Below are positions 1 to 27,557 of a stretch of DNA of 64,000 nucleotides, in pieces. Made by a program: the position numbers and the translations under genes. The stretch lies in assembly GCF_044324785.1 (NCBI RefSeq), contig NZ_CP172127.1. One strand, written 5' to 3'. Numbering within the stretch: position 1 is the first letter of the stretch; every line of letters starts with the position of its first letter. Under the pieces are notes generated by a model. That model was not told where the DNA came from. It did no database searches and saw only the letters and a program-made list of their open reading frames with translations. The stretch is from Escherichia coli. Its GTDB lineage: Bacteria; Pseudomonadota; Gammaproteobacteria; Enterobacterales; Enterobacteriaceae.

Positions 1-545
1 GCACTGTTACCACGGGCATTTGCCATCAGCACGGCAATTGAGTACTGATGTGAAAAAAATTGTAAGCGGCGGGTAGATGCCAGTAGGTCGGGTTCCCCCA
101 GACATTGCCCTGTCGTAAACAGTGAACAGGTCGGGTCCATATCCATACCTTGCGGTTGTTCATCGACCACCGTGATGGTTCTGGAACGACGGCCCAGACA
201 TGCACCATGACTCTGATGGTAGATCCCTGGCGTTTTTCGCCACGGTGCGAACACCGCAATTCCACGAATAAAGCGATCGTTATATTCAACGGGAAGGCCG
301 GCAATGATGGTCATTCGCCAGGTCGTTGCAGCATAACAAAGCGGGTCTAACAGCGAGAGATCGGGTGGGGCAGGAAGGGCACGTCGCGAATAATCACACC
401 CCAGTAAAGAAAGCGATGGAAAAACTAACAGCTGACATTGTTGCCTGGCGGCGGCCCTCACAAACTCCAGATGATGAGCTACCTGTTCGGTGAGTGAGGT
501 TTTACGAGGCTCATATTGCGCTGCTGCAACTTTCCAGAACGACAT
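1..545 (-). CDS. yobB: Carbon-nitrogen hydrolase family protein YobB, 3' end cut by window edge
   Basis: Open minus-strand frame from ATG at 543-545 to window start (no stop in frame, checked by hand); translation begins MSFWKVAAAQYEPRKTSLTEQVAHHLEF; sits downstream of holE as in K-12. Not listed in ORF track because it runs off the edge. Confidence 0.75.
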   Translation of the reverse strand, partial: MSFWKVAAAQYEPRKTSLTEQVAHHLEFVRAAARQQCQLLVFPSLSLLGCDYSRRALPAPPDLSLLDPLCYAATTWRMTIIAGLPVEYNDRFIRGIAVFAPWRKTPGIYHQSHGACLGRRSRTITVVDEQPQGMDMDPTCSLFTTGQCLGEPDLLASTRRLQFFSHQYSIAVLMANARGNS

Positions 546-646
546 AATGACTTCCTTTTCAAAATGACTGCAAATTATGGGGGCGGTTTAGAAAATACTC
601 ATAATTTAGCAGGCGTTATGTAAGAAAGTGTAACTCTGTATAAGTT

Positions 647-877
647 TTATTTAAGTTTGGGCTCGTAAGGTAAACGTGACAGATTGACCGAAGCCAAACG
701 GTGGGCGATAAGCCGCTCGCGAAACCAGCTGCGCAAATGTTCAGGCTGTTCACGTTCAACTGCTTCAGCGATCACCGGCATATTGTAGCGTTCTTTAAAT
801 GCCACCCCGGCCGCAGCCAAATCGACATTCACTTTATCCATTTCTGTTTGATCCAGTTTAGCCAGATTCTTCAGCAT
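647..877 (-). CDS. holE: DNA polymerase III theta subunit
   Basis: Track ORF 647..964 trimmed to internal Met; 76-aa product [76 protein letters not shown] recognised as HolE. Confidence 0.9.
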
Positions 878-1015
878 TCTTAATCTCCTCATCATTCGCG
901 GGCAAAAGTTACTAAGAGTGAGCCTGGATGGCAAGCCGGAATTGATGATCCTCGACTCAGACATTAGACAGGGTTATGCTCTGTAAAAAAGTTATTACAA
1001 AAAGGAATAGATAAT

Positions 1016-1390
1016 ATGACTTCAACTGCACGCACCCTTCGCTACGCGCTGGCAATCCTGACCACTTCGTTGGTGACACCTTCCGTCTGGGCACATGCGC
1101 ATTTAACGCATCAGTATCCTGCGGCAAACGCGCAAGTGACAGCTGCCCCGCAGGCAATTACTTTAAACTTCTCGGAAGGCGTTGAAACAGGATTCAGTGG
1201 TGCAAAAATCACGGGGCCAAAAAACGAAAATATTAAAACATTACCGGCGAAGCGGAATGAGCAGGACCAAAAGCAACTGATTGTTCCACTGGCCGATTCG
1301 CTGAAACCCGGAACCTACACCGTTGACTGGCATGTTGTTTCGGTGGACGGGCATAAAACGAAAGGACACTACACCTTTAGCGTGAAATAA
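1016..1390 (+). CDS. yobA: CopC-family periplasmic protein YobA
   Basis: 124-aa ORF with N-terminal signal peptide and AAGGAA Shine-Dalgarno upstream; recognised as YobA; 3 nt before yebZ. Confidence 0.9.
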   Translation: MTSTARTLRYALAILTTSLVTPSVWAHAHLTHQYPAANAQVTAAPQAITLNFSEGVETGFSGAKITGPKNENIKTLPAKRNEQDQKQLIVPLADSLKPGTYTVDWHVVSVDGHKTKGHYTFSVK

Positions 1391-1393
1391 ATC

Positions 1394-2266
1394 ATGCTGG
1401 CGTTTACCTGGATCGCGCTGCGATTTATCCATTTCACCTCGCTGATGCTGGTTTTTGGCTTCGCAATGTACGGTGCCTGGCTGGCCCCCTTAACGATTCG
1501 TCGCTTGCTGACGAAGCGTTTTCTGCGTTTACAACAGCACGCTGCCGTCTGGAGTTTGCTCAGTGCCACTGCAATGCTCGCCGTTCAGGGCGGGTTGATG
1601 GGAACGGGATGGACAGATGTATTTTCGCCAAACATTTGGCAGGCTGTTTTGCAAACGCAGTTTGGTGGCGTCTGGTTATGGCAAATTGTTCTCGCCCTCG
1701 TAACGTTGATCGTCGCCCTTATGCAACCGCGGAATATGCCACGTTTGCTGTTTATGCTCACTACCGCGCAATTTATTCTGCTGGCGGGAGTCGGGCATGC
1801 GACGCTGAATGAAGGGGTAACGGCGAAAATCCATCAGACTAATCACGCGATTCACCTGATTTGTGCGGCGGCGTGGTTTGGGGGATTACTGCCGGTGCTC
1901 TGGTGTATGCAACTCATCAAAGGCCGTTGGCGACACCAGGCTATTCAGGCGCTGATGCGTTTTTCCTGGTGCGGGCATTTTGCGGTGATCGGCGTACTGG
2001 CAAGCGGCGTTCTTAATGCATTGTTGATTACCGGATTTCCCCCCACGCTTACGACTTACTGGGGCCAACTCTTATTGCTCAAAGCTATCCTGGTGATGAT
2101 TATGGTGGTCATCGCGCTGGCTAATCGTTATGTTCTTGTACCGCGCATGAGGCAGGATGAAGATCGTGCGGCTCCCTGGTTTGTGTGGATGACTAAACTC
2201 GAATGGGCGATAGGTGCGGTAGTGCTGGTGATCATCAGCCTGCTTGCGACTCTCGAACCTTTTTGA
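1394..2266 (+). CDS. yebZ: CopD-family inner membrane protein YebZ
   Basis: 290-aa polytopic hydrophobic ORF immediately after yobA; length and sequence match YebZ. Confidence 0.9.
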   Translation: MLAFTWIALRFIHFTSLMLVFGFAMYGAWLAPLTIRRLLTKRFLRLQQHAAVWSLLSATAMLAVQGGLMGTGWTDVFSPNIWQAVLQTQFGGVWLWQIVLALVTLIVALMQPRNMPRLLFMLTTAQFILLAGVGHATLNEGVTAKIHQTNHAIHLICAAAWFGGLLPVLWCMQLIKGRWRHQAIQALMRFSWCGHFAVIGVLASGVLNALLITGFPPTLTTYWGQLLLLKAILVMIMVVIALANRYVLVPRMRQDEDRAAPWFVWMTKLEWAIGAVVLVIISLLATLEPF

Positions 2267-2278
2267 TGGATTACGAAA

Positions 2279-2620
2279 ATGATGAAAAAAAGTATTCTGG
2301 CGTTTCTGTTACTCACCAGTTCTGCAGCGGCGCTGGCTGCACCGCAGGTGATTACCGTCAGCCGTTTTGAAGTGGGTAAAGACAAATGGGCGTTTAATCG
2401 CGAAGAGGTGATGCTGACTTGCCGACCGGGTAATGCTTTGTATGTCATTAACCCAAGTACCCTCGTGCAGTATCCGTTAAACGATATTGCACAAAAGGAA
2501 GTCGCCAGCGGGAAGACTAAAGCCCAGCCCATTTCGGTGATTCAGATTGATGATCCTAACAATCCCGGCGAAAAAATGAGTCTGGCACCGTTTATAGAGC
2601 GAGCTGAAAAACTCTGTTAA
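2279..2620 (+). CDS. yebY: DUF2511 secreted protein YebY
   Basis: 113-aa [23 protein letters not shown]... with signal peptide; third gene of yobA-yebZ-yebY. Confidence 0.85.
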
Positions 2621-2650
2621 TTACCTAAAATAGCCTTTTGATTTCCAATA

Positions 2651-2690
2651 AAAAACCGCCTCAGCTCTTTCACCAGAACGGGCGGTTTTT
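2651..2690. terminator. Bidirectional intrinsic terminator (yebY on +, RyeA on -)
   Basis: aaaaaccgcc...ggcggttttt: GC stem flanked by A-tract upstream and T-tract downstream, so a U-run follows the hairpin on either strand. Confidence 0.5.
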
Positions 2691-2763
2691 AACATTTAAG
2701 CTGATGACCACCGCGCTTTTTATTGACCATTTTGCACGCAAACTGGAAAACCTGGCGTCGTCA

Positions 2764-2774
2764 TCTATTCTTAA
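2764..2774 (+). promoter_or_regulatory. Sigma-S type extended -10 element for sdsR
   Basis: TCTATTCTTAA matches the RpoS extended -10 consensus (TCTATACTTAA) at 10 of 11 positions, placed to start transcription at about 2778. Confidence 0.5.
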
Positions 2775-2777
2775 AGG

Positions 2778-2881
2778 GCAAGGCAACTAAGCCTGCATTA
2801 ATGCCAACTTTTAGCGCACGGCTCTCTCCCAAGAGCCATTTCCCTGGACCGAATACAGGAATCGTGTTCGGTCTCTTTTTA
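2778..2881 (+). ncRNA. sdsR: sRNA SdsR (RyeB), RpoS-dependent
   Basis: Sequence GCAAGGCAACTAAGCCTGCATTAATGCCAACTTTTAGCGCACGGCTCTCTCCCAAGAGCCATTTCCCTGGACCGAATACAGGAATCGTGTTCGGTCTCTTTTT recognised as SdsR; ends in hairpin CCGAA..TTCGG plus T-run; about 104 nt. Confidence 0.7.
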
Positions 2882-3014
2882 TCTGTTAAAAGCCAGAAGC
2901 ATTCCCTTCGCTGACTTTATAGTCAACCATAACACACACTCTACTGTCTGAGTCCAGCGTTTTTTAACATTCTTGTTAAGATTATGTGATCTTTAGCGCG
3001 GGAGGAAAATATTG

Positions 3015-3671
3015 ATGAAACAGCCTGCGCCCGTTTATCAGAGAATTGCGGGTCATCAATGGCGACATATCTGGCTTTCAGGCGATATACACGGTTGTCT
3101 TGAGCAGTTGCGCCGCAAATTATGGCATTGTCGTTTTGATCCGTGGCGAGATTTACTTATCTCAGTGGGAGATGTTATCGATCGTGGGCCGCAAAGTTTA
3201 CGTTGTCTGCAGTTACTGGAACAACATTGGGTTTGTGCGGTAAGAGGCAATCATGAACAGATGGCGATGGATGCGCTGACATCTCAGCAGATGTCTTTGT
3301 GGTTGATGAATGGCGGCGACTGGTTTATTGCGCTGGCAGATAATCAACAGAAACAAGCGAAAACGGCGCTGGAAAAATGTCAGCATTTGCCCTTTATTCT
3401 TGAAGTACACAGTCGCACCGGCAAACATGTTATTGCTCATGCCGATTATCCAGATGATGTTTATGAATGGCAAAAGGACGTTGATTTGCATCAGGTCTTG
3501 TGGAGCCGCTCGCGATTAGGTGAACGCCCAAAAGGGCAGGGAATTAAAGGTGCTGATCATTTCTGGTTTGGTCATACACCGTTGCGACATCGCGTGGATA
3601 TTGGCAACCTGCATTATATTGATACCGGTGCTGTCTTTGGGGGCGAACTGACTCTTGTGCAATTGCAATAA
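3015..3671 (+). CDS. pphA: Serine/threonine protein phosphatase 1 (PrpA)
   Basis: Track ORF 3012..3671 (219 aa) with the second Met giving 218 aa, MKQPAPVYQRIAGHQWRHIWLSGDIHG; calcineurin-like phosphoesterase signature GDxxDRG present (GDVIDRG). Confidence 0.9.
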   Translation: MKQPAPVYQRIAGHQWRHIWLSGDIHGCLEQLRRKLWHCRFDPWRDLLISVGDVIDRGPQSLRCLQLLEQHWVCAVRGNHEQMAMDALTSQQMSLWLMNGGDWFIALADNQQKQAKTALEKCQHLPFILEVHSRTGKHVIAHADYPDDVYEWQKDVDLHQVLWSRSRLGERPKGQGIKGADHFWFGHTPLRHRVDIGNLHYIDTGAVFGGELTLVQLQ

Positions 3672-3863
3672 TTAAAAATCACCGTACTCCTGTGCTGGTC
3701 GCCAGAAACCATCAATAAAATCCTCGATTGGAAAACAACCGCCATGGCGGATCCGTTGATCGCTCATAGAATAAAGACACTGCTGTTCCGTGTTGTAGAC
3801 ATCCACAACAATATCTTCACAACCGCCATCCAGGTAGCAAACAAAAAGTACCAGCGCGAACAT
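3672..3863 (-). CDS. yebW: Small protein YebW (63 aa)
   Basis: Track ORF 3672..3947 trimmed to internal Met: MFALVLFVCYLDGGCEDIVVDVYNTEQQCLYSMSDQRIRHGGCFPIEDFIDGFWRPAQEYGDF. Confidence 0.8.
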   Translation of the reverse strand: MFALVLFVCYLDGGCEDIVVDVYNTEQQCLYSMSDQRIRHGGCFPIEDFIDGFWRPAQEYGDF

Positions 3864-3967
3864 TTCATCCCCGAAGTGTGGTGCCGTACCGTTAAGTTTA
3901 GGAGAGATTTTACAACGGGGGAATAACCAGGACAAATAACCCGCCATGCCGACGGGTTCTTTTTGGA

Positions 3968-4204
3968 TCAGGCAAGACGCATAATCCAGGCATCAGATTG
4001 TTGATCGTAACGGGTACGGTAAAGGACAGAGTGTTCGCCATTTAGCAGGGCAGGAATACTGGTTTCAGCATCCCAGGCATCCAGTTGCATACATAAATCG
4101 GGGTCTGATTTACAAGGAATGGTTAACGTTCGATCACCCGGCGATTCACCGTGTAATTCGCCGTCGTCGATTTCAAAAGCGCCTATGCGCACACTGGTTT
4201 TCAT
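3968..4204 (-). CDS. yebV: Small protein YebV (78 aa)
   Basis: Track ORF 3968..4219 trimmed to Met6: MKTSVRIGAFEIDDGELHGESPGDRTLTIPCKSDPDLCMQLDAWDAETSIPALLNGEHSVLYRTRYDQQSDAWIMRLA. Confidence 0.8.
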   Translation of the reverse strand: MKTSVRIGAFEIDDGELHGESPGDRTLTIPCKSDPDLCMQLDAWDAETSIPALLNGEHSVLYRTRYDQQSDAWIMRLA

Positions 4205-4321
4205 CTTCGTGCTCTCCATTTAGCTGCCGATTGTGGTACGACCAGTCCGATCGCACCATTTTTCAGCCTAGTTGAGGCAGCCGAATGTGCCAGTCAAAAA
4301 GTGCGCTTTTTTTGTGCGCTG

Positions 4322-5761
4322 TCAGGCGTTACCGGTAAAAAGTTTCCCATCTCGCACCAGTTCACGCGGGTAGCTGTTTTTCAGTCGCGAACCAATTCGT
4401 TTGGCTAAACCAATCGGCTGATGCTGGAAAGTAACTAATACATCATCCGCTACTGGCGCGGCTTGCGGGTAAACATCGCGCCCGCGATACCACTCTTCCG
4501 CTTCCTGCGGTGTCAGTTCAAAAGCGTTCACATTGTCGGGGGAGGCAAGGGCAATAACCGCTTCATGCTGCCAGCGATAACCTTTATTATGCGTTTCGGC
4601 AAGTTTAATCCCCAACCGAGAAAATCGGACTTTACCGATCAGGGCTTCAATGCCTACCGGGAACAACCACAGTTCTTTGTCGCGTTGCCAGAGTCGCAGG
4701 TTTCCATCCCAGTTTAAGCCAACACTTGCAGCCGCCTGACGAATTTGTCCGGCTTCGCGATCTTTTACCGGGCTAAACGGAAAATTGCCCACTTTGTATT
4801 TTGGGGCGGGTAACGCAGGAATCGCCTTGGTTTTACGCAGACGAGCAACGAAGAAGCCTTCGCAGTCGTAAATTTGTGGGAAAACATGCAAAAAACCTTC
4901 TTCGGTCAACGCCTTGTTTGCACCAGGGAAGAGATCGCCAAGCGGTAAAAACTCTACTGCGTCGGGGTAAGTCTCTTTCAGCCACAGGCAAACAGCTTCG
5001 TTTTCTTCCTTGTTTAAGGTACAGGTTGAGTAGACCAGCGTACCGCCAGTACGTAAAGCGTGAAAGGCACTGTCGATCAGTTCTCGCTGGGTCGCCGCAA
5101 TTTCCTGATTGCTTTCCGGTGACCAGTTTTTCAGTGCGTCGGGATCTTTGCGCACTACGCCTTCGCCAGAGCAGGGGGCGTCCAGCAGAATGGCATCGAA
5201 CATTTCTGGTAACGCCGCACCAAAGACGCGACCATCAAAATGAGTCAGAGAGACGTTACGGATACCGCAGCGACTGATATTGGCATGTAACACTTTTACC
5301 CGGCTGGCAGAAAACTCATTGGCAAGGATCGCCCCTTCGTTATTCATCCTCGCGGCAATTTGCGTCGTTTTTGAGCCTGGCGCGGCAGCGACATCCATCA
5401 CCCGCTGTGGTGCATTACCGTCAGCAAACAAGGCGGCGACGGGCAACATTGAACTGGCTTCCTGAATATAAAACAGGCCACTTAAATGCTCGGCGGTACT
5501 ACCCAATGGCAAGGCATCTTCATCGTCGCGTTCAATCCAGAAACCTTCTTCACACCACGGAATTGGCGTAAGCGTCCAGCCATAAGGGGCGGTTAATTGC
5601 AGGAAATCAGCAACGGAGATTTTCAGCGTATTAACGCGAATACTGCGGCGCAACGGGCGCTGACAGGCGGCAAGAAAATCATCAAATGAGAGCGTCGAAG
5701 GCATCGCTTCGCGCATTTGTGTCAGAAAGGCGTCCGGGAAATAAACGGTGTGTTGGGCCAC
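4322..5761 (-). CDS. rsmF: 16S rRNA m5C1407 methyltransferase RsmF
   Basis: 481-aa track ORF; annotated product is 479 aa, so probable GTG start two codons in; SAM-methyltransferase motifs ([20 protein letters not shown]) visible. Confidence 0.9.
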
Positions 5762-5840
5762 GAGCATGTACCACTGGCAAAAAAACAGGCGCGCAGTTTA
5801 GCATAAACGCTCCGGCGCAGGCACGCCGGAGCAGTGAGCA

Positions 5841-8474
5841 TTATTTGGGAAGCGCTGTTCCCCATTCACGCCACTCTTTCGGTTCACTTTCCTGCAACAG
5901 GAAGTGCTTGCCTTCCTGAGCTTTCGGTGCCAGCGGCGTACCCGGAGGCGTAGCGAAGGCGATGCCGCCACGGATAAACTGGTTAAAGGTGCCGGTTTTT
6001 ACTACGCCGCCCGTCAGACCAAAGTCCAGACTGTAACCCGATGCCAACCAGAAGACGGAATTGTTACGCACCAGGTGTTGATAGCGTTTACTGATGCGCA
6101 TCGCAATCATCACGCGATCTGACAATGTCCCCAGCGTCATTCCGGTAACCGTACCGACTTCCAGACCACGGAACAGCACAGGTGTACCGATACCTAACGA
6201 ACCGGCTTCCGGCGCTTCAACAATAATGCTTAAGCCATCCAGGTAACGCGAATCAGTTATGGTGGCCTCTTGTAATTCAAAGTCGCGGCGAGGATTGCCC
6301 CGGCCTGGTTCGACGTTGATATACGGCTGGAGGATAGTATCAAGATGCTCAACGCCAGCTGCCGAAATTTGCGGTGTGACCACTGAGAAGCGCGTACCAC
6401 CGCGAGCAAAGGTCTGGACATATTCCGGATAGAGCACCGCCTTTGCCTGTACTTCATTGCGCGCGGTAATCAGATCCAGCGTCTGGATTTGCCCGATATC
6501 AATACCGAGATAGCGAATTGGCATCCCGACCGCCAGTTTTCCGGCATCGAAAGCGTGAAGCGTAATCTGCCCGCCAACCGCACGGGCTGCTGTTTCGGAA
6601 GCATACAGAATACGCTTATCGCCTTTACGCTGACTGGCGCTGGCACCGCTGAGGTTATCGAAGCTAATGGCTCCCTTTAATGCTCTGGAGAGCGGGGATG
6701 CCTGTACGGTCAGGCCACTACCATTCAGCTGAACTTTCGCCCCGCCTTCTGCCCAGAACACGCTATTGCTGGTCAGAAGGTTGCGATACTCCGGCTTAAT
6801 ATGCAGATCGATATCAAACGCGTTAGCTCGCGGACGCACAGTAATAACTTCACCAACTTCAAATTTACGGTACAGCACTACCGATCCTGCCTGCACATCC
6901 GGCAGTGTCTCTGCACTCAAACTTACGGTTGTGGTGGGTAAATCGCTAAGGCTGTTCTCCAGCGCTTTTTCCAGATTGGCATACAGTGGATAGCTGGCTT
7001 TCATCTCGCCTTTATCGCCCGGCAGAATACGTATCCCGCCGTTAATCCATTCTGAGGCGCTGGCACCGAGAAACTCAACGCCATCCAGCCCCACCTTCAC
7101 GTCGACACGGCTGTTGACGACAAATTTGCTATCGCCTTTTACCAGTTCGCGATGCTGAGGCTCGATGGCGACGGTAAAGGTGACGCCTTTGCTGGTGAGT
7201 TTACGATCAATAACCTGGCCTACCTGCACGCCGTGAAGAATGAGCGGCTGACCAGCATCAATGCCGTAACTTTCTGGTGCTGTCAGGGTCAGTGTCAGAA
7301 CATCCGGCTCTTGTAGCAGGGCTTTTTCACCTGGCACAACAACGAACTCTTTGCGTGGCTCGCCATCGCCGGGCACCAACTCAAAGGTTTTTCCGGTCAG
7401 CAGGGCGCTGAGATTGGCATCGCTAAGGGATAATTTCGGATTACGTAATTCGATGCGGGTATTTTCACGAAGCAGGGTGACGACGCTGGGATCAACGGTC
7501 ATTTCTCCGGTGACTTTACCACCAGGATTTAAATCCAGTTTAGTCAGCTGTCCGACTTCCAGCCCCTGATACATTAACGGCGTCGAGTCGGCGGTTAATC
7601 CGGCCCCACTCGGCAGTTCCAGTTTTATTATTACGCCACGCTGGCTGTGGGCGAGATCTTCATACAGACCAAAGGTATCTTCCGCCTCGGCAGGTTTCGA
7701 CTCTTCAGGTGAATCGAAGGCAATCGCACCGTTAACCAGTGCCGCCAGACTTTCCAGTTTCACCTTCGCGCCACTGATACTGACGTTGGCATCAACGCCG
7801 GAAACGTTCCAGAAACGGCTACCTTTTTTCACCAGGTCGGTAAAACGCCGCTCGATCAGGACATCAATCACCACACCTTGCTTGTTGGGATTGATGGCAT
7901 AGTCGTAGACTTTTCCGACCGGGATCTTGCGGAAATAGACCAATGAACCGCTGTTCAGCGAACCGAGATCGGGGGCTTGCAGGTGGATCATCAAATCGCC
8001 ATTGTCCAGCCGATATTTCGGTTGGGTATCGAGTGCGACAAAGTGATCCTGCTCTTTACCTTTACCTGGCATCATGCCGATATAGTTACCACCGACGAGG
8101 GCGTCCAGCCCGGAGACACCTGCCAGCGAGGCCTTTGGCGTCACCAGCCAGAACTGTGTCTCTTCGCGCAGCGCATCTTTCATATCGGACTTGATGCTGA
8201 CCTTGACTTCAATCTTACGAAGATCGTCGCTCAGGCTGATATCCTGCACAGTTCCGACTTCAACGCCCTGATAACGAACAGGCGTACGGCCTGGAACAAT
8301 ACCATCCGCCGACATAAAGTCGATGGTGACGGTATTGCCCCGGTCCTGATAACTGTCCCAAATCAGCCAACCAGCAATCATTAGCGCGATGAACGGCAGC
8401 AGCCAGAAAGGTGAGATACGGCGTTTGTTTTTAATCTGCGCTTCAGTCGTCGAAGCGGGCGTTTCCTGACTCAT
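5841..8474 (-). CDS. letB: Lipophilic envelope-spanning tunnel protein LetB (YebT), multi-MCE domain
   Basis: Track ORF 5841..8516 (891 aa) trimmed to Met15 (MSQETPAST...) gives 877 aa; repeated MCE-like segments; overlaps letA by 32 nt. Confidence 0.9.
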
Positions 8475-9726
8475 GTGCATCCCAAAGTAAGCGGCTGTCC
8501 AGCCATTCCACAGCAAGAATAGTCAAAATTACCGCTGCGCCGAAATAAAACGCAGCCGGTCCCATAGTAAAAGCGAGGATCTGATCGCGATTAATCAGCG
8601 ACATGGTTAAAGATATGACAAACAGGTCGAGCATCGACCAGCGACCAATCCAGGTCACCATCCGCAGTAACAGAATGCGTGTGCGTAAACCTTGCTGGCA
8701 TTTAAAATGAATACTCAACAGTAAAGTGAACATGACGATCACTTTAGTAAACGGTACCAGAATACTGGCGATAAACACGATTCCCGCAACGGCAATGTTG
8801 CTACTTGCCAGCGACATAATTCCGGAAAGAATTGTATCTTCCTGCCGTCCTCCGTTCAGATAAATGATAGAAATAGGCAACAGGTTGGCAGGTAACAACA
8901 AAACGATTGACGCTAACAGCGCCGCCCAGCATTTTTGCAGACTATGACGGCGACGCAGGCGTAGCGGGATATGGCAACGCGGGCAGCGACCACGCTGATC
9001 AGGATAGCCGGTAAAATGGCACCCAAGACAGACACGGAGTTTCTCGTCCCTACGCGTAGCGGGGCGCTGCGGATAAAATCGCTCCCACAGTTCTTCGACA
9101 TTGAGATGTGACAACGTCACCGTCGTTAAAATCACCAACGCCACAAAAGAGAACAAGCCGACACCCGCCTGGATATGGGCATAATCCTGCACCTTTATAG
9201 AAGCAACGCCAATGCCGACCAGGTAGATATCGAGCATTACCCACTCTTTCAGTCGTTCAAGCATCAGCAGTACCGGACGTAAATTCATTCCCAGTCGGTT
9301 ACCAAACCATAAATAAGCTATGGAGGTCACCAGAATGAGGGGGGCACCGATAACGCAGAAAAAGACCATCGACCCCGTTATCGCATCGCCCTGTTTGGTC
9401 ATTTGCCAGATGCCTTGCATAACGTTGGCGTCAATACGAATGCCTAACAGCCAGATATGCAACAGCGGTTCGCCCCAGGCAAACGGCATAAGCAACAGCA
9501 TGGTGAAGGCCATTGCCGCCAGGCGCGTTAGCGACCAGTCGCGCCCGTCACGAATTTTTGCCTGACAGCGCGGACAATAGGCACTTTGATGAGAATTTAT
9601 CTCGGGCAGGCTAAACAGCATGTCACATTGCGGGCAACGTTGGTAATCACCACGCGGCAGTTCCTCACCGATAGCCCTCACTGTTATCTTTTTTGTCGGC
9701 GTAATTTGTGGTGTGTTAAGAGCCAT
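8443..9726 (-). CDS. letA: Inner membrane protein LetA (YebS), PqiA family
   Basis: 427-aa ORF with two CxxC...CxxC zinc-ribbon-like motifs each followed by hydrophobic segments; immediately upstream of and overlapping letB. Confidence 0.9.
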
Positions 9727-18923: not shown

Positions 18924-19733
18924 ATGTCGTTTTCCTGTCCACTTTGCCATCAGCCTCTTTCGCGTGAAAAAAACAGCTATATCTGTCCCCAGCGACATCA
19001 GTTTGATATGGCGAAAGAAGGGTATGTCAATCTGCTGCCCGTTCAGCATAAACGGTCTCGTGATCCGGGCGACAGCGCGGAAATGATGCAAGCACGCCGC
19101 GCATTCTTAGATGCCGGACATTATCAGCCGCTGCGTGATGCAATTGTCGCTCAACTGCGGGAACGGCTTGATGAAAAGGCCACAGCGGTGCTGGATATTG
19201 GCTGTGGTGAAGGGTATTACACACACGCATTTGCCGATGCGCTGCCCGAAATCACCACGTTTGGCCTGGATGTCTCGAAGGTAGCGATAAAAGCGGCGGC
19301 GAAACGCTATCCGCAGGTCACTTTTTGTGTTGCTTCCAGCCACCGTTTGCCGTTTTCCGATACCAGTATGGACGCCATAATACGTATTTACGCGCCGTGT
19401 AAAGCAGAAGAATTAGCGCGAGTAGTGAAGCCTGGCGGTTGGGTCATTACTGCCACGCCGGGACCGCGACATTTGATGGAGCTGAAGGGGCTGATTTACA
19501 ATGAAGTACATCTTCATGCACCACATGCAGAACAACTGGAAGGTTTTACATTACAGCAGAGTGGTGAGTTGTGTTATCCGATGCGTCTTCGCGGTGACGA
19601 AGCCGTCGCATTATTGCAGATGACGCCGTTTGCCTGGCGTGCGAAGTCAGAAGTCTGGCAAACACTGGCAGCAAAAGAAGTGTTCGACTGCCAGACGGAC
19701 TTTAATATTCACCTCTGGCAGCGTTCTTATTAA
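18924..19733 (+). CDS. rlmA: 23S rRNA m1G745 methyltransferase RlmA
   Basis: 269-aa ORF with N-terminal Cys4 zinc motif (CPLCHQ...CPQRH) and SAM-binding DIGCGEG motif. Confidence 0.9.
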
Positions 19734-24398: not shown

Positions 24399-25955
24399 AT
24401 GGAATTCTTAATGGACCCCTCAATTTGGGCGGGGCTACTCACGCTTGTTGTTCTCGAAATTGTGCTGGGTATCGATAACCTGGTCTTCATCGCCATTCTT
24501 GCTGACAAACTGCCGCCAAAACAACGCGATAAAGCGCGTTTGCTGGGATTATCACTGGCGCTGATTATGCGTCTGGGGCTGCTGTCGCTGATTTCATGGA
24601 TGGTCACGCTGACCAAACCGCTATTTACCGTCATGGATTTCTCCTTCTCCGGACGTGACCTGATTATGTTGTTCGGGGGAATATTCTTGCTGTTCAAAGC
24701 AACAACCGAACTGCATGAACGGCTGGAAAACCGCGATCATGATTCCGGTCACGGTAAAGGCTACGCCAGTTTCTGGGTGGTCGTCACACAGATCGTCATC
24801 CTTGACGCCGTCTTCTCGTTGGATGCGGTAATTACGGCAGTAGGGATGGTTAACCATCTGCCAGTGATGATGGCGGCGGTAGTGATTGCGATGGCGGTTA
24901 TGCTGCTGGCATCGAAACCGCTGACGCGATTTGTTAACCAGCATCCAACGGTGGTGGTGCTCTGTCTGAGCTTCCTGTTAATGATTGGTCTGAGTCTGGT
25001 GGCAGAAGGTTTCGGTTTCCACATTCCGAAAGGTTACCTGTATGCCGCGATTGGCTTCTCGATCATCATCGAAGTGTTTAACCAGATTGCGCGTCGCAAC
25101 TTTATTCGTCACCAGTCGACTTTGCCGCTGCGAGCGCGTACTGCCGATGCCATCCTGCGTTTGATGGGCGGGAAACGTCAGGCCAATGTTCAGCACGATG
25201 CCGATAACCCGATGCCGATGCCGATCCCGGAAGGTGCATTTGCCGAAGAAGAACGTTACATGATTAACGGCGTACTCACGCTGGCGTCGCGTTCTCTGCG
25301 CGGGATCATGACGCCGCGCGGTGAAATAAGCTGGGTTGACGCTAATCTCGGGGTCGATGAAATCCGCGAGCAGCTGCTCTCCTCACCGCACAGCCTGTTC
25401 CCGGTATGTCGCGGTGAACTGGATGAAATCATCGGAATCGTACGTGCTAAAGAACTGCTGGTGGCGCTGGAAGAGGGCGTTGATGTGGCGGCGATTGCTT
25501 CGGCGTCTCCGGCGATTATCGTCCCTGAAACCCTCGATCCGATCAACCTGCTGGGCGTGCTGCGTCGTGCTCGCGGGAGCTTTGTTATCGTGACCAACGA
25601 GTTTGGTGTGGTACAAGGCTTGGTCACGCCGCTGGATGTGCTGGAAGCCATTGCGGGTGAATTCCCGGACGCTGACGAAACGCCGGAAATCATTACTGAT
25701 GGTGACGGCTGGCTGGTAAAAGGCGGTACAGATTTGCATGCCTTGCAGCAGGCGCTTGATGTTGAGCACCTTGCCGATGACGATGATATCGCGACGGTCG
25801 CGGGCCTCGTGATCTCGGCAAATGGTCACATTCCCCGTGTGGGCGATGTGATTGATGTAGGTCCACTGCATATCACCATCATTGAAGCCAATGATTATCG
25901 TGTTGATCTGGTTCGCATTGTTAAAGAGCAACCGGCGCACGATGAAGATGAGTAA
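24399..25955 (+). CDS. yoaE: TerC-family membrane protein with CBS/CorC C-terminal domains, YoaE
   Basis: 518-aa ORF: N-terminal polytopic TerC-like half, C-terminal soluble CBS-pair and transporter-associated region. Confidence 0.9.
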
Positions 25956-25958
25956 GCG

Positions 25959-27557
25959 TTAACGTAACGGCATAACGGGCGTGATATGTCCATTATGCCG
26001 GGCGGGCGGCGGTTGGCTGCCCGCCAGCCATTTGGGAAAATCACGTAGCGGCATCGGCTGTGCGTACAAATACCCTTGCAAAATATGCACGCCATGACGG
26101 CGCAAATACTTCGCCTGTTCTTGCGTTTCCACGCCCTCCGCCACCAGTTCAATATTCAGTCTTTGCCCCAGCGCGATGATGATATCGGTCACCGTCGAGT
26201 TAACCGCGTCAGAACCTATAGCTGCGGTAAATGACTTATCAATTTTCAGCACGTCAGGACGTAATGTTTCAAGCCAGGAAAACGAGCTGTTGCCGGTGCC
26301 GAAGTCATCAATCGCCAGTTTGACGTTTTTACGATGCAGCTCGCGGGCAATCCGATAATCCACATCCAGTAAGGCATCGCGTTCGGTGATTTCGAGGATC
26401 AGTTGCTGAATCGGGTGAGCGCTAAACCAGTACTGATTGAGATCTTTTATCAGCACACCACGGCGAAAATGGCTGGGTGCGACGTTAATGCCAACATGAA
26501 ACTGACTACTCATAGGGAAAACATGGCGCTGACGAATGGTTTCTGCCATCACATAGCGGGTCAGTGGCACAATTAAATGATGTTCTTCCGCGATAGGAAT
26601 AAACACATCCGGTGAAATCCAGCCCTGACGCGGATTGTTCCAGCGCAGCAAAATCTCTACACCAATACATTGCTGGCTGCGCGCATTAAGCAAAGGCTGA
26701 CAGAACAATTCGAACTCATGTTGCGCCAGGCCCAGATTGATTTCACGGGAAAAACTCATCCGGTAAGCGGTCGCCAGCCAGGCGATATAGCCCACAAGTA
26801 AACTTAGAAGCACCGCCAGCGGTAATTGTGTTGGAAGATAGTGCCATGCCAGCGCCGTAGCCCCCGGACCATTAACGTTAATGGTAAAAGGAAAGCGTTG
26901 CGAAGAAACCTGATAGTTTTCATTGTCTTCAGGTTGCGGAAGGGTATCTACCAGCCCATTACCATAGAGCAAATGCCGATTGTCCACCGTCAGGCTGGCG
27001 CTACTGATTTGCGGCAGTTGTGGCTCAAGCAGCATTGCCGCCAGTAAGTCGATGTTAATCATCTCCATGACCCCAGCATTGCTACTGCCCGCTGCTGGCG
27101 TCCATTGAATCAAAACCGGACTGCCTTTAATCAGGGCACGGTCGATCGTCAGGCGTAAAAGTGGTTGCGGTGCAGGAAGTTCAGCCAGAATGTCCACGAC
27201 GGGCACATTGCGATAACCAAAAATGCTGGAGCAATAAAGTGTGCCGTCTTGCACCAGGCCAATGGATCGCACAGTTTGGAGTTTTGCCGCCTGTTTACGT
27301 AATGGCAAATGGGCGACAGAGCAGGGCAGACCAATTAGCGGAAGTAAGACTTCGCTACCTGCCTGTAGGGGAAGCAGTACTTTATCTAATTCCTCTACAG
27401 CGTGATTGGCGAATTGTACTACCCGTTGTTGATTTAAGTTACGCTGTGAAATAAATCGCACGCTCAGGGTCGAAGCGAGCGTAACGAGTGCGCAAATCGT
27501 ACAAACAATCATTCGATTACGGCGATAGGTTTTAATGATCCGTTGTGCTTTTTGCAT
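25959..27557 (-). CDS. pdeD: c-di-GMP phosphodiesterase PdeD (YoaD), CSS-motif sensor plus EAL domain
   Basis: Track ORF 25959..27587 trimmed to MQKAQRIIKTYRRNRMIVCTI... (532 aa); EAL-domain motifs EITER, DDFGTG and QGYLY visible. Confidence 0.85.
   Translation of the reverse strand: MQKAQRIIKTYRRNRMIVCTICALVTLASTLSVRFISQRNLNQQRVVQFANHAVEELDKVLLPLQAGSEVLLPLIGLPCSVAHLPLRKQAAKLQTVRSIGLVQDGTLYCSSIFGYRNVPVVDILAELPAPQPLLRLTIDRALIKGSPVLIQWTPAAGSSNAGVMEMINIDLLAAMLLEPQLPQISSASLTVDNRHLLYGNGLVDTLPQPEDNENYQVSSQRFPFTINVNGPGATALAWHYLPTQLPLAVLLSLLVGYIAWLATAYRMSFSREINLGLAQHEFELFCQPLLNARSQQCIGVEILLRWNNPRQGWISPDVFIPIAEEHHLIVPLTRYVMAETIRQRHVFPMSSQFHVGINVAPSHFRRGVLIKDLNQYWFSAHPIQQLILEITERDALLDVDYRIARELHRKNVKLAIDDFGTGNSSFSWLETLRPDVLKIDKSFTAAIGSDAVNSTVTDIIIALGQRLNIELVAEGVETQEQAKYLRRHGVHILQGYLYAQPMPLRDFPKWLAGSQPPPARHNGHITPVMPLR

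What the first reader, a model, noticed from the sequence alone, without database searches (positions are those of the whole stretch)
3669..3674. pphA and yebW converge with directly abutting stop codons (TAATTA)
The pphA stop (TAA, 3669-3671) is followed immediately by the reverse-complement stop of yebW (3672-3674). No terminator hairpin can separate the two convergent transcription units, so each transcript must read into the other gene, creating obligatory antisense overlap.
Basis: seen in the sequence. Interest (0 to 1): 0.3.

Follow-up and report, generated by a model that had tools for sequence, protein, structure and literature searches.

The report
pphA and yebW end back-to-back
Two E. 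coli genes on opposite strands, pphA and yebW, end on adjacent bases, so their transcripts must run into each other; this is real and old, but it is a common, already catalogued arrangement.

Summary
pphA (+, 3015-3671) stops at TAA 3669-3671, and yebW (-, 3863-3672) stops on the next three bases, 3672-3674. The K-12 annotation is identical.

No terminator can fit between the two genes. Published Term-seq lists no pphA or yebW 3' end near the junction. A 2025 RNA-seq map (ExcludonFinder) already lists yebW-pphA as a convergent "excludon".

What I add:
- **Conservation:** the 0-nt gap holds in 47 of 61 Enterobacteriaceae species that have yebW, although both stop codons change. Both proteins are conserved to their last residue, which explains most of this. 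Insertions did occur in Raoultella/Klebsiella and Salmonella.
- **Architecture:** yebW lies between the pphA stop and a conserved hairpin at 3938-3958. That hairpin is the mapped yebV terminator. In Enterobacter, which lacks yebW, it follows the pphA stop directly. pphA read-through should therefore cover all of yebW in antisense.
- **Own promoter:** yebW has a conserved promoter-like element of its own.
- **Termination:** no intrinsic terminator lies inside pphA on the yebW strand, so Rho is the likely terminator.

Tight convergent pairs are ordinary: three of nine in this window have gaps of 3 nt or less. Regulatory importance is untested. Low interest; already known.

The parts
3015..3671 (+). 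pphA coding sequence (218 aa, NinI-like Ser/Thr phosphatase); stop TAA at 3669-3671
   Evidence: ORF. NCBIfam NF008516 at 2.6e-132 and phrog_246 NinI-like. Annotation.
3669..3674 (.). The junction TAATTA: the pphA stop (3669-3671) directly abuts the reverse-complement yebW stop (3672-3674). The hexamer is its own reverse complement, so each stop is followed by U.
   Evidence: The 0-nt gap is present in 48 of the 62 loci that carry yebW.
3672..3863 (-). yebW coding sequence (63 aa, DUF1482 / YdfD-YebW family); ATG at 3863-3861. The longer 91-aa ORF starting at 3947 is not supported.
   Evidence: Pfam PF07358 at 1e-35. dN/dS 0.03-0.08 with saturated synonymous sites. Annotation. The upstream spacer varies in length by amounts that are not multiples of 3.
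3868..3872 (-). yebW Shine-Dalgarno sequence (GGGGA here; GAGGA in most species)
   Evidence: Conserved GAGGAT 5-8 nt before the ATG in the spacer sequences.
3895..3923 (-). Conserved promoter-like element for yebW. The -35-like TTCCCC is at 3923-3918, followed by a 17-nt spacer and the -10 TAAACT at 3900-3895 with C at -13 (CTACACT in most genera).
   Evidence: Consensus TTTCCCC-N17-CTAcAcT about 30 nt upstream of the ATG in 53 unique species sequences. Function and sigma factor are inferred, not shown.
3934..3966 (.). Conserved GC-rich hairpin AACCCGCCATGCCGACGGGTT (3938-3958). On the - strand it is followed by AUUU, with the mapped yebV 3' end at 3934. On the + strand it is followed by CUUUUUGG (3959-3966), making it the candidate end point for pphA read-through.
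   Evidence: Term-seq 3' end at K-12 1,922,050. The hairpin is present in all 78 loci that have yebV. Stem pair 7 is T-A in 30, C-G in 21 and C.A in 9 of the unique sequences. In yebW-less Enterobacter it lies 6 nt after the pphA stop.
3968..4204 (-). yebV coding sequence (78 aa, DUF1480), the gene upstream of yebW on the same strand. It ends at its own terminator.
   Evidence: Pfam PF07351 at 1e-42. Annotation. RpoS dependence from PMC5437024 and PMC2907692.
2777..2880 (+). sdsR (RyeB) sRNA gene. Its sigma-S promoter and terminator read-through are reported to drive pphA transcription.
   Evidence: Rfam RF00111 at 2.5e-22. K-12 coordinates. PMC6610125.
2647..2918 (-). ryeA (SraC) antisense sRNA. 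Its terminator (hairpin 2688-2653, U-tract from 2652) is the first strong intrinsic terminator that a yebW transcript would meet on the - strand.
   Evidence: Rfam RF00101 at 4e-41. K-12 coordinates. Terminator scan gives -17.7 kcal/mol.

Best explanation
pphA and yebW are a tail-to-tail gene pair with no intergenic DNA and no terminator of their own at the junction. Their transcripts therefore necessarily overlap in antisense. pphA mRNA is reported to arise mainly by read-through from the sigma-S sdsR promoter. After its stop codon it continues as an untranslated, C-rich RNA across the whole of yebW. It ends either by Rho action or at the conserved hairpin at 3938-3958, which is the mapped yebV terminator and has a U-run on the pphA strand in Escherichia. 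yebW is transcribed from its own conserved promoter-like element just downstream of that hairpin, and possibly also by leak-through from yebV. Its transcript runs antisense into the 3' part of pphA, where no intrinsic terminator exists, so Rho most likely ends it. The zero spacing persists mainly because both proteins are constrained to their last residue and only an insertion at one phosphodiester bond could change it. It is most likely a tolerated by-product of compact gene packing, with at most a modest interference effect, because pphA transcription is weak. Shown: the geometry, its conservation, the hairpin and its - strand 3' end, and published overlapping RNA-seq coverage. Inferred: Rho termination, use of the hairpin by pphA transcripts, the yebW promoter, and the size of any regulatory effect.
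For: Geometry is established. No intrinsic terminator candidates lie on the + strand between 3393 and 3960, and none is credible on the - strand inside pphA. Term-seq lists only the yebV 3' end, at window 3934. yebW-pphA is listed as a convergent excludon. RNA downstream of both stops has C/G ratios of 1.3-2.3. The hairpin is conserved in 78 of 78 loci with a covarying stem pair. In 18 yebW-less, still syntenic loci the same hairpin directly follows the pphA stop, and one Trabulsiella genome keeps a yebW remnant. The yebW promoter-like element is conserved. The C-termini TLVQLQ* and QEYSDF* are conserved, and dN/dS is 0.03-0.08. pphA RNA declines along the ORF (PMC6610125). Tight convergent pairs are frequent.
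Against: No 3' end on the pphA strand is reported at the hairpin. In Escherichia the + strand version of the stem has a C.A mismatch (-6.9 versus -11.4 kcal/mol on the other strand), and only 30 of 60 yebW-bearing species have 5 or more T in the following 8 nt. Rho involvement rests on base composition alone. No transcription start site data were found for yebW. ExcludonFinder's criterion is met almost automatically by a 0-nt gap whenever both genes are expressed. Conservation of the gap in 47 of 61 species leaves room for selection on the arrangement itself.
Confidence: 0.75

Rival explanations
1. This is a selected regulatory excludon. The zero spacing is maintained so that pphA transcription always silences yebW, and vice versa, through RNA polymerase collision, occlusion of the yebW promoter and RNase III cleavage of the duplex. 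The result would be reciprocal expression of a phosphatase and a small stress protein.
For: The pair is listed as a convergent excludon. The 0-nt gap is retained in 47 of 61 species despite stop-codon turnover. pphA read-through would cross the whole yebW gene including its promoter. The neighbouring ryeA/sdsR pair is already shown to act through transcriptional interference.
Against: Insertions of 3, 5 and 27-28 nt, a 4-nt overlap and complete loss of yebW are all tolerated in different lineages. pphA transcripts fade along the ORF. No reciprocal expression data exist for this pair. Both promoters look stationary-phase-related, which does not fit mutually exclusive expression. Conservation of the gap is explained by constraint on the C-termini.
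Confidence: 0.2
2. Termination at the junction is driven by collision. Converging RNA polymerases meet near the abutting stops and define both 3' ends without a canonical terminator, as proposed for the overlapping bidirectional terminators found by SEnd-seq.
For: The mechanism is described for E. coli convergent pairs (Ju et al. 2019, as summarised in bioRxiv 10.1101/2022.10.23.513370). The pair has no canonical terminator at the junction.
Against: That mechanism uses a hairpin-forming pause element in the overlap and works best for highly expressed pairs. Folding of the junction shows nothing beyond shuffled controls (z -0.56 and +0.15). Term-seq reports no discrete 3' ends there. pphA is weakly transcribed.
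Confidence: 0.07
3. This is a type-I-toxin-antitoxin-like module. YebW is a YdfD-like lytic small protein that is kept off by the antisense 3' UTR of pphA.
For: YebW belongs to DUF1482 together with the Qin lysis protein YdfD. YdfD is lytic when expressed (PMC8835842). The pphA read-through RNA would be fully complementary to yebW mRNA.
Against: Multicopy yebW was recovered as conferring resistance to gentamicin, ceftriaxone and levofloxacin, and a yebW knockout was viable, so there is no sign of toxicity. Identity to the phage YdfD family is only 34-41%. No dedicated antisense sRNA promoter or Rfam family is present in the region. Enterobacter lost yebW but kept pphA.
Confidence: 0.04
4. This is an annotation artefact: one of the two ORF ends is mis-called and the true genes are separated.
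For: yebW is short and uncharacterised. A longer alternative ORF of 91 aa exists.
Against: Both reading frames are conserved to the last codon across genera. dN/dS is 0.03-0.08 for yebW and about 0.1-0.18 for pphA. Both have family matches. The alternative ORF changes the start, not the stop.
Confidence: 0.01

Closest known systems
Convergent excludons / overlapping 3' UTRs of neighbouring genes (ExcludonFinder map of E. coli MG1655, NAR 2025, PMC12288877)
   Same: The genes are convergent, there is no terminator between them, and the transcripts overlap. This exact pair (yebW-pphA) is in the published list of 165, and two other tight pairs from this window (pdeD-yoaE, yeaO-yoaF) are also listed.
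   Different: Reciprocal expression and RNase III processing, the features that give an excludon its function, have not been shown for this pair. The overlap here is forced by a 0-nt gap rather than by long UTRs.
Bidirectional intrinsic terminators shared by convergent genes
   Same: The hairpin at 3938-3958 has an A-tract on one side and a U-tract on the other. It has a mapped 3' end for yebV. In Enterobacter it sits directly between pphA and yebV.
   Different: In Escherichia it does not lie between pphA and yebW. yebW is lodged between the pphA stop and the hairpin, so the terminator is about 267 nt beyond the pphA stop. Its + strand stem is weakened by a C.A mismatch.
Short convergent gene overlaps (for example 4-nt TTAA or CTAA stop-stop overlaps)
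   Same: Both belong to one continuum of tail-to-tail packing. Klebsiella orthologues of this pair overlap by 4 nt, as does mntP/rlmA in this window. E. coli has 75 overlapping convergent pairs.
   Different: In the window the two coding sequences share no nucleotide.
ryeA/sdsR convergent sRNA pair immediately upstream (PMC6610125)
   Same: It is in the same locus, uses the same logic of convergent transcription, has demonstrated transcriptional interference, and involves the same sdsR-pphA transcript.
   Different: ryeA and sdsR are fully overlapping non-coding RNAs with experimentally shown mutual degradation. pphA and yebW are protein-coding genes, and no effect has been measured.

Membership tests
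Convergent excludon | Neighbouring genes in convergent orientation with no effective terminator between them | tested here: met
   The gap is 0 nt. No terminator candidates lie at or near the junction on either strand.
Convergent excludon | Transcripts of the two genes overlap in vivo | not testable with these tools
   Published only: yebW-pphA is listed in at least 50% of 58 MG1655 transcriptomes. Term-seq shows no 3' ends near the junction.
Convergent excludon | Mutually exclusive expression and/or RNase III processing of the overlap | not testable with these tools
   No pair-specific data were found in the papers read.
Bidirectional intrinsic terminator serving the pphA/yebW pair | GC-rich hairpin with U-tracts on both strands, located between the two stop codons | tested here: not met
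   No sequence lies between the stops. The nearest such hairpin (3938-3958) is beyond yebW.
Bidirectional intrinsic terminator serving pphA and yebV | Conserved hairpin with covariation, A-tract and U-tract flanks, and mapped 3' ends on both strands | tested here: inconclusive
   The hairpin is present in 78 of 78 loci and stem pair 7 covaries (T-A, C-G, or G.U on the - strand). The - strand 3' end is mapped. No + strand 3' end is reported, and the + strand T-run has 5 or more T in 8 nt in only half of the yebW-bearing species.
Overlapping genes (shared coding nucleotides) | At least one nucleotide belongs to both coding sequences | tested here: not met
   The window and K-12 have a gap of exactly 0. 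The feature is met only in Klebsiella and R. terrigena orthologues, which overlap by 4 nt.
Type I toxin-antitoxin | Small toxic protein repressed by a dedicated cis-encoded antisense RNA | not tested
   No test of toxicity or of antisense repression was possible here. Published work points against toxicity: multicopy yebW gave antibiotic resistance and the knockout was viable. Rfam finds no sRNA over yebW. The only antisense candidate is the pphA 3' extension.
DUF1482 / YdfD-YebW protein family (YebW) | Significant match to the family profile over its full length | tested here: met
   PF07358 at 9.9e-36 covering profile positions 1-57 of 57. phrog_1092 at 4.5e-13. PGAP name 'YdfD/YebW family protein'.

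The most novel reading that the evidence does not exclude
The pphA 3' extension is a built-in, selected antisense regulator of yebW, a chromosomal relative of the phage lysis protein YdfD. On this reading, the zero spacing has been kept across Enterobacteriaceae so that stationary-phase sdsR-pphA transcription always crosses and shuts the yebW promoter and mRNA. The module would be a domesticated phage phosphatase plus small-protein pair wired as an excludon.
Probability: 0.08. Interest if true: 0.45.

Novelty: already known. Interest (0 to 1): 0.15.

Why it matters
It matters little as a discovery. The abutting stops are in the standard K-12 annotation, and the transcriptional overlap is already in a published excludon catalogue. 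The useful outcome is clarification:
- The pair is one of many tight convergent pairs.
- Its long conservation is mostly explained by constraint on the two protein C-termini.
- The nearest terminator belongs to yebV, not to either gene of the pair.

If the overlap did prove regulatory, it would link the sdsR/ryeA circuit to a small YdfD-family protein that affects antibiotic susceptibility. That would be a modest but concrete extension of a known circuit.

Tried and rejected
1. **Terminator hidden in the coding ends.**
   - The scan found a - strand hairpin inside yebW (nt 49-88 of the CDS, -12.2 kcal/mol, followed by UUUAUUCU at 3775). Only 6 of 62 species keep both the stem and the U-run, and it lies in translated sequence, so I rejected it.
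   - A + strand hairpin inside pphA (3278-3295) carries two substitutions (3279, 3284) relative to K-12, so it is not shared between strains. I rejected it as chance.
   - Folding of the junction itself on both strands is no better than shuffled sequence.
2. **Tool-predicted sigma-70 promoter for yebW** (TTGTCC-17-TAAAAT, 3935-3907). The scan found no more sites than shuffles give, and this site is not conserved outside Escherichia. The conserved element is the one at 3923-3895.
3. **Unknown RNA family at the junction.** Rfam at E<=1 over 1-9000 gave only RyeA and SdsR, plus two chance snoRNA matches.
4. **Extra nucleotide-level constraint on yebW from the antisense RNA.** Synonymous sites are saturated, as in the neighbouring genes, so there is none.
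5. **More 3'-end or start-site data.** No supplementary text was held, or no hits were found, for ExcludonFinder, the 3'-UTR valve Term-seq paper, TERMITe and ROSE. Thomason 2015 is not held.
6. **Annotation artefact.** Rejected on the evidence.

Full report
**Observation**

The window reads ...caa TAA TTA aaa atc... at 3666-3680.
- The + strand ORF 3012/3015-3671 is pphA. It matches NCBIfam NF008516 at 2.6e-132.
- The - strand ORF ending at 3672 is yebW. It matches Pfam DUF1482 at 1e-35.
- The pphA stop occupies 3669-3671. The reverse-complement yebW stop occupies 3672-3674.
- RefSeq annotates the same abutment in strain 2012C-4502 and in K-12 MG1655, where yebW is 1,922,121-1,922,312 and pphA 1,922,313-1,922,969.
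- The window is about 98.8% identical to K-12 here. It is identical at the junction and across the whole yebV-yebW spacer, so K-12 experiments transfer directly.
- The locus is present in 5,423 of 5,426 complete E. coli genomes.

**Is it unusual?**

As an isolated instance, it is not.
- Using the K-12 annotation of the collinear 50 kb, the window holds nine convergent CDS pairs. Their gaps are -4 (mntP/rlmA), 0 (this pair), +3 (pdeD/yoaE), 21, 45, 53, 58, 119 and 143 nt.
- Only the pairs with 45 nt or more show an obvious hairpin between the stops.
- Huvet & Stumpf 2014 count 75 convergent pairs in E. coli whose coding sequences actually overlap.

**Conservation**

A scan of one genome per species with PphA returned 80 loci.
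- Of the 61 that carry yebW convergent to pphA, 47 have a gap of exactly 0 nt. These span Escherichia, Citrobacter, Phytobacter, Kosakonia, Lelliottia, Leclercia, Yokenella and Trabulsiella.
- The stop hexamers vary: TAATTA, TAATCA, TAGTTA, TAGCTA, TGATCA, TGATTA and TAACTA.
- Eight loci (Klebsiella, R. terrigena) overlap by 4 nt, four (three Raoultella and one labelled Enterobacter) have +3 or +5, and two Salmonella subspecies have +27/+28.
- The Klebsiella state looks like the Raoultella +5 insertion followed by loss of the pphA stop; this is my reading of the sequences.
- Both proteins are conserved to the last residue (TLVQLQ* and QEYSDF*). yebW has dN/dS of 0.03-0.08, with synonymous sites saturated.
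- Stop-codon shifts are therefore selected against, and only an insertion at a single bond can change the gap. At least two such insertions occurred. I see no need to invoke selection on the zero spacing itself, although I cannot exclude it.

**What surrounds the junction**

Reading the - strand from yebV, the order is as follows:
1. yebV stop (3970-3968).
2. An A-run.
3. The hairpin AACCCGUCGGCAUGGCGGGUU (3958-3938), followed by AUUU.
4. A conserved TTTCCCC-N17-CTAcAcT element (window 3923-3895).
5. A Shine-Dalgarno sequence (3872-3868).
6. The yebW ATG (3863).

Adams et al. 2021 Term-seq lists a "primary yebV" 3' end at K-12 1,922,050 in two conditions. That maps to window 3934, right after the hairpin. 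They list nothing else on either strand up to sdsR at 1,923,104. So yebV has its own terminator, and yebW is most likely started from the conserved promoter-like element. Leak-through from yebV may also contribute.

The -10 of that element keeps T-A-N-N-N-T with a C at -13 in nearly all genera. From my own knowledge of sigma-S promoter consensus this looks sigma-S-like, but that is an inference. No start-site data were found.

The hairpin is present in all 78 loci that have yebV. Six outer pairs and pair 8 are invariant. Among the unique sequences, pair 7 is T-A in 30, C-G in 21 and C.A in 9. The C.A state is a G.U wobble on the yebV strand.

In Escherichia the hairpin is therefore strong on the yebV strand (-11.4 kcal/mol) and weaker on the pphA strand (-6.9 kcal/mol). 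The pphA strand does carry the better U-run, CUUUUUGG at 3959-3966.

**A natural experiment**

Eighteen still-syntenic loci lack an intact yebW; most are from the Enterobacter cloacae complex.
- In the Enterobacter loci the pphA stop is followed within 6 nt by the same hairpin and then the yebV stop (TAAtaaatAACCCGCCTTCGGGCGGGTT...).
- One Trabulsiella genome retains a truncated yebW remnant, while another Trabulsiella genome has the intact gene. Loss by deletion is therefore the simpler reading.
- In those species the hairpin is the only terminator available to pphA.
- By extension, in yebW-bearing species the pphA transcript has nothing to stop it before that hairpin, 267 nt beyond its stop. 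Its 3' extension would be antisense to the entire yebW gene, its ribosome-binding site and its promoter.

**Where do the transcripts end?**

- My scan finds no + strand terminator candidate between 3393 and 3960.
- On the - strand it finds no credible candidate inside pphA. The next strong hairpin is the ryeA terminator near 2652 (-17.7 kcal/mol).
- RNA downstream of both stops is C-rich and G-poor, with C/G of 1.3-2.3 in 78-nt windows. This composition favours Rho on untranslated RNA.
- I therefore infer Rho-dependent, heterogeneous termination on both sides, with the 3938-3958 hairpin as a backstop for pphA.
- This fits the absence of discrete 3' ends in Term-seq. It also fits the report that sdsR-pphA read-through RNA declines along the pphA ORF.

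**What is already known**

- ExcludonFinder (NAR 2025) lists yebW-pphA among 165 convergent excludons seen in at least 50% of 58 MG1655 transcriptomes. With a 0-nt gap the tool's criterion is met almost automatically once both genes are expressed, so this confirms overlap, not function.
- Choi et al. 2019 show that pphA is transcribed mainly from the sigma-S sdsR promoter by terminator read-through. They could not detect the reported heat-shock promoter.
- yebV is RpoS-dependent in Salmonella and in EDL933.
- Multicopy yebW was reported to confer resistance to gentamicin, ceftriaxone and levofloxacin, and a knockout was viable.
- YebW is 34-41% identical to phage YdfD-family proteins. PphA is a NinI-like phosphatase. 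Both genes therefore have phage relatives, but the trio is chromosomal and old.

**Verdict**

The arrangement is a common kind of compact convergent packing. Its deep conservation is mostly a side effect of constraint on both protein C-termini.

Details added here are the nesting of yebW between the pphA stop and the yebV hairpin, the conserved yebW promoter-like element, and the lack of any intrinsic terminator for yebW transcripts. Whether the overlap regulates anything is untested. I give a selected regulatory role about 0.2 and a toxin-antitoxin-like reading about 0.04.

Novelty: already known. Interest: 0.15.

Noticed in passing
window 2647-2918 (ryeA, - strand) and 2777-2880 (sdsR, + strand): The known mutually antisense sRNA pair SraC/RyeA and SdsR/RyeB lies just upstream of pphA (Rfam 4e-41 and 2.5e-22). 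An unterminated yebW transcript would run through antisense pphA into the RyeA sense region and end at the RyeA terminator.
   Followed up: partly
window 19730-19733: mntP and rlmA converge with a 4-nt overlap of their stop codons (TTAA). They are packed more tightly than the reported pair. The pair was not seen in the parts of the ExcludonFinder Table 1 returned by the search.
   Followed up: partly
window 25953-25961: yoaE (stop TAA at 25953-25955) and pdeD (reverse-complement stop TTA at 25959-25961) converge with only 3 nt between their stops. This pair is also in the published excludon list.
   Followed up: partly
window 3895-3923 (- strand): The conserved promoter-like element upstream of yebW has a -10 (CTACACT in most genera, CTAAACT here) with C at -13 followed by TAA. 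This resembles sigma-S-type promoters. No start-site data were found.
   Followed up: partly
L030, L036, L041 and other Enterobacter loci, about 3143-3185; L029 3143-3240: The Enterobacter cloacae complex lacks yebW cleanly, which leaves the pphA stop 6 nt from the yebV terminator hairpin. Trabulsiella odontotermitis TbOT1.10 keeps a truncated yebW remnant, whereas strain 01 (L034) has the intact gene.
   Followed up: partly
L006 (Escherichia albertii NBRC 107761) 3060-3110: pphA contains about six tandem copies of an 8-nt unit (ACGCCATT) where E. coli has single-copy coding sequence. This puts the C-terminal part in another frame. It could be a pseudogene, a slippage-prone repeat or an assembly artefact.
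   Followed up: no
window 3278-3295 (+ strand): A terminator-like hairpin inside pphA (GACATCTCAGCAGATGTC followed by TTTGTGG) could be read as a premature terminator. K-12 differs at two stem positions (3279, 3284), so it is probably chance.
   Followed up: yes
window 3672-3947 (- strand): The mechanical ORF for yebW is 91 aa, starting at an ATG that lies in the loop of the yebV terminator hairpin. Cross-species spacer lengths and the conserved Shine-Dalgarno sequence support the 63-aa form starting at 3863.
   Followed up: yes
window 3015-3863: Both genes of the pair have phage relatives. PphA matches the NinI-like phosphatase phrog_246 at 1e-87. YebW matches phrog_1092 and phage YdfD-family proteins at 34-41% identity. 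This suggests old domesticated phage genes.
   Followed up: partly
L007 and L008 (Citrobacter sp. wls619, C. youngae CCUG 30791): yebW abuts pphA with a 0-nt gap, but neither yebV nor rsmF was detected within 2.5 kb downstream. This implies a rearrangement or insertion next to yebW in these genomes.
   Followed up: no
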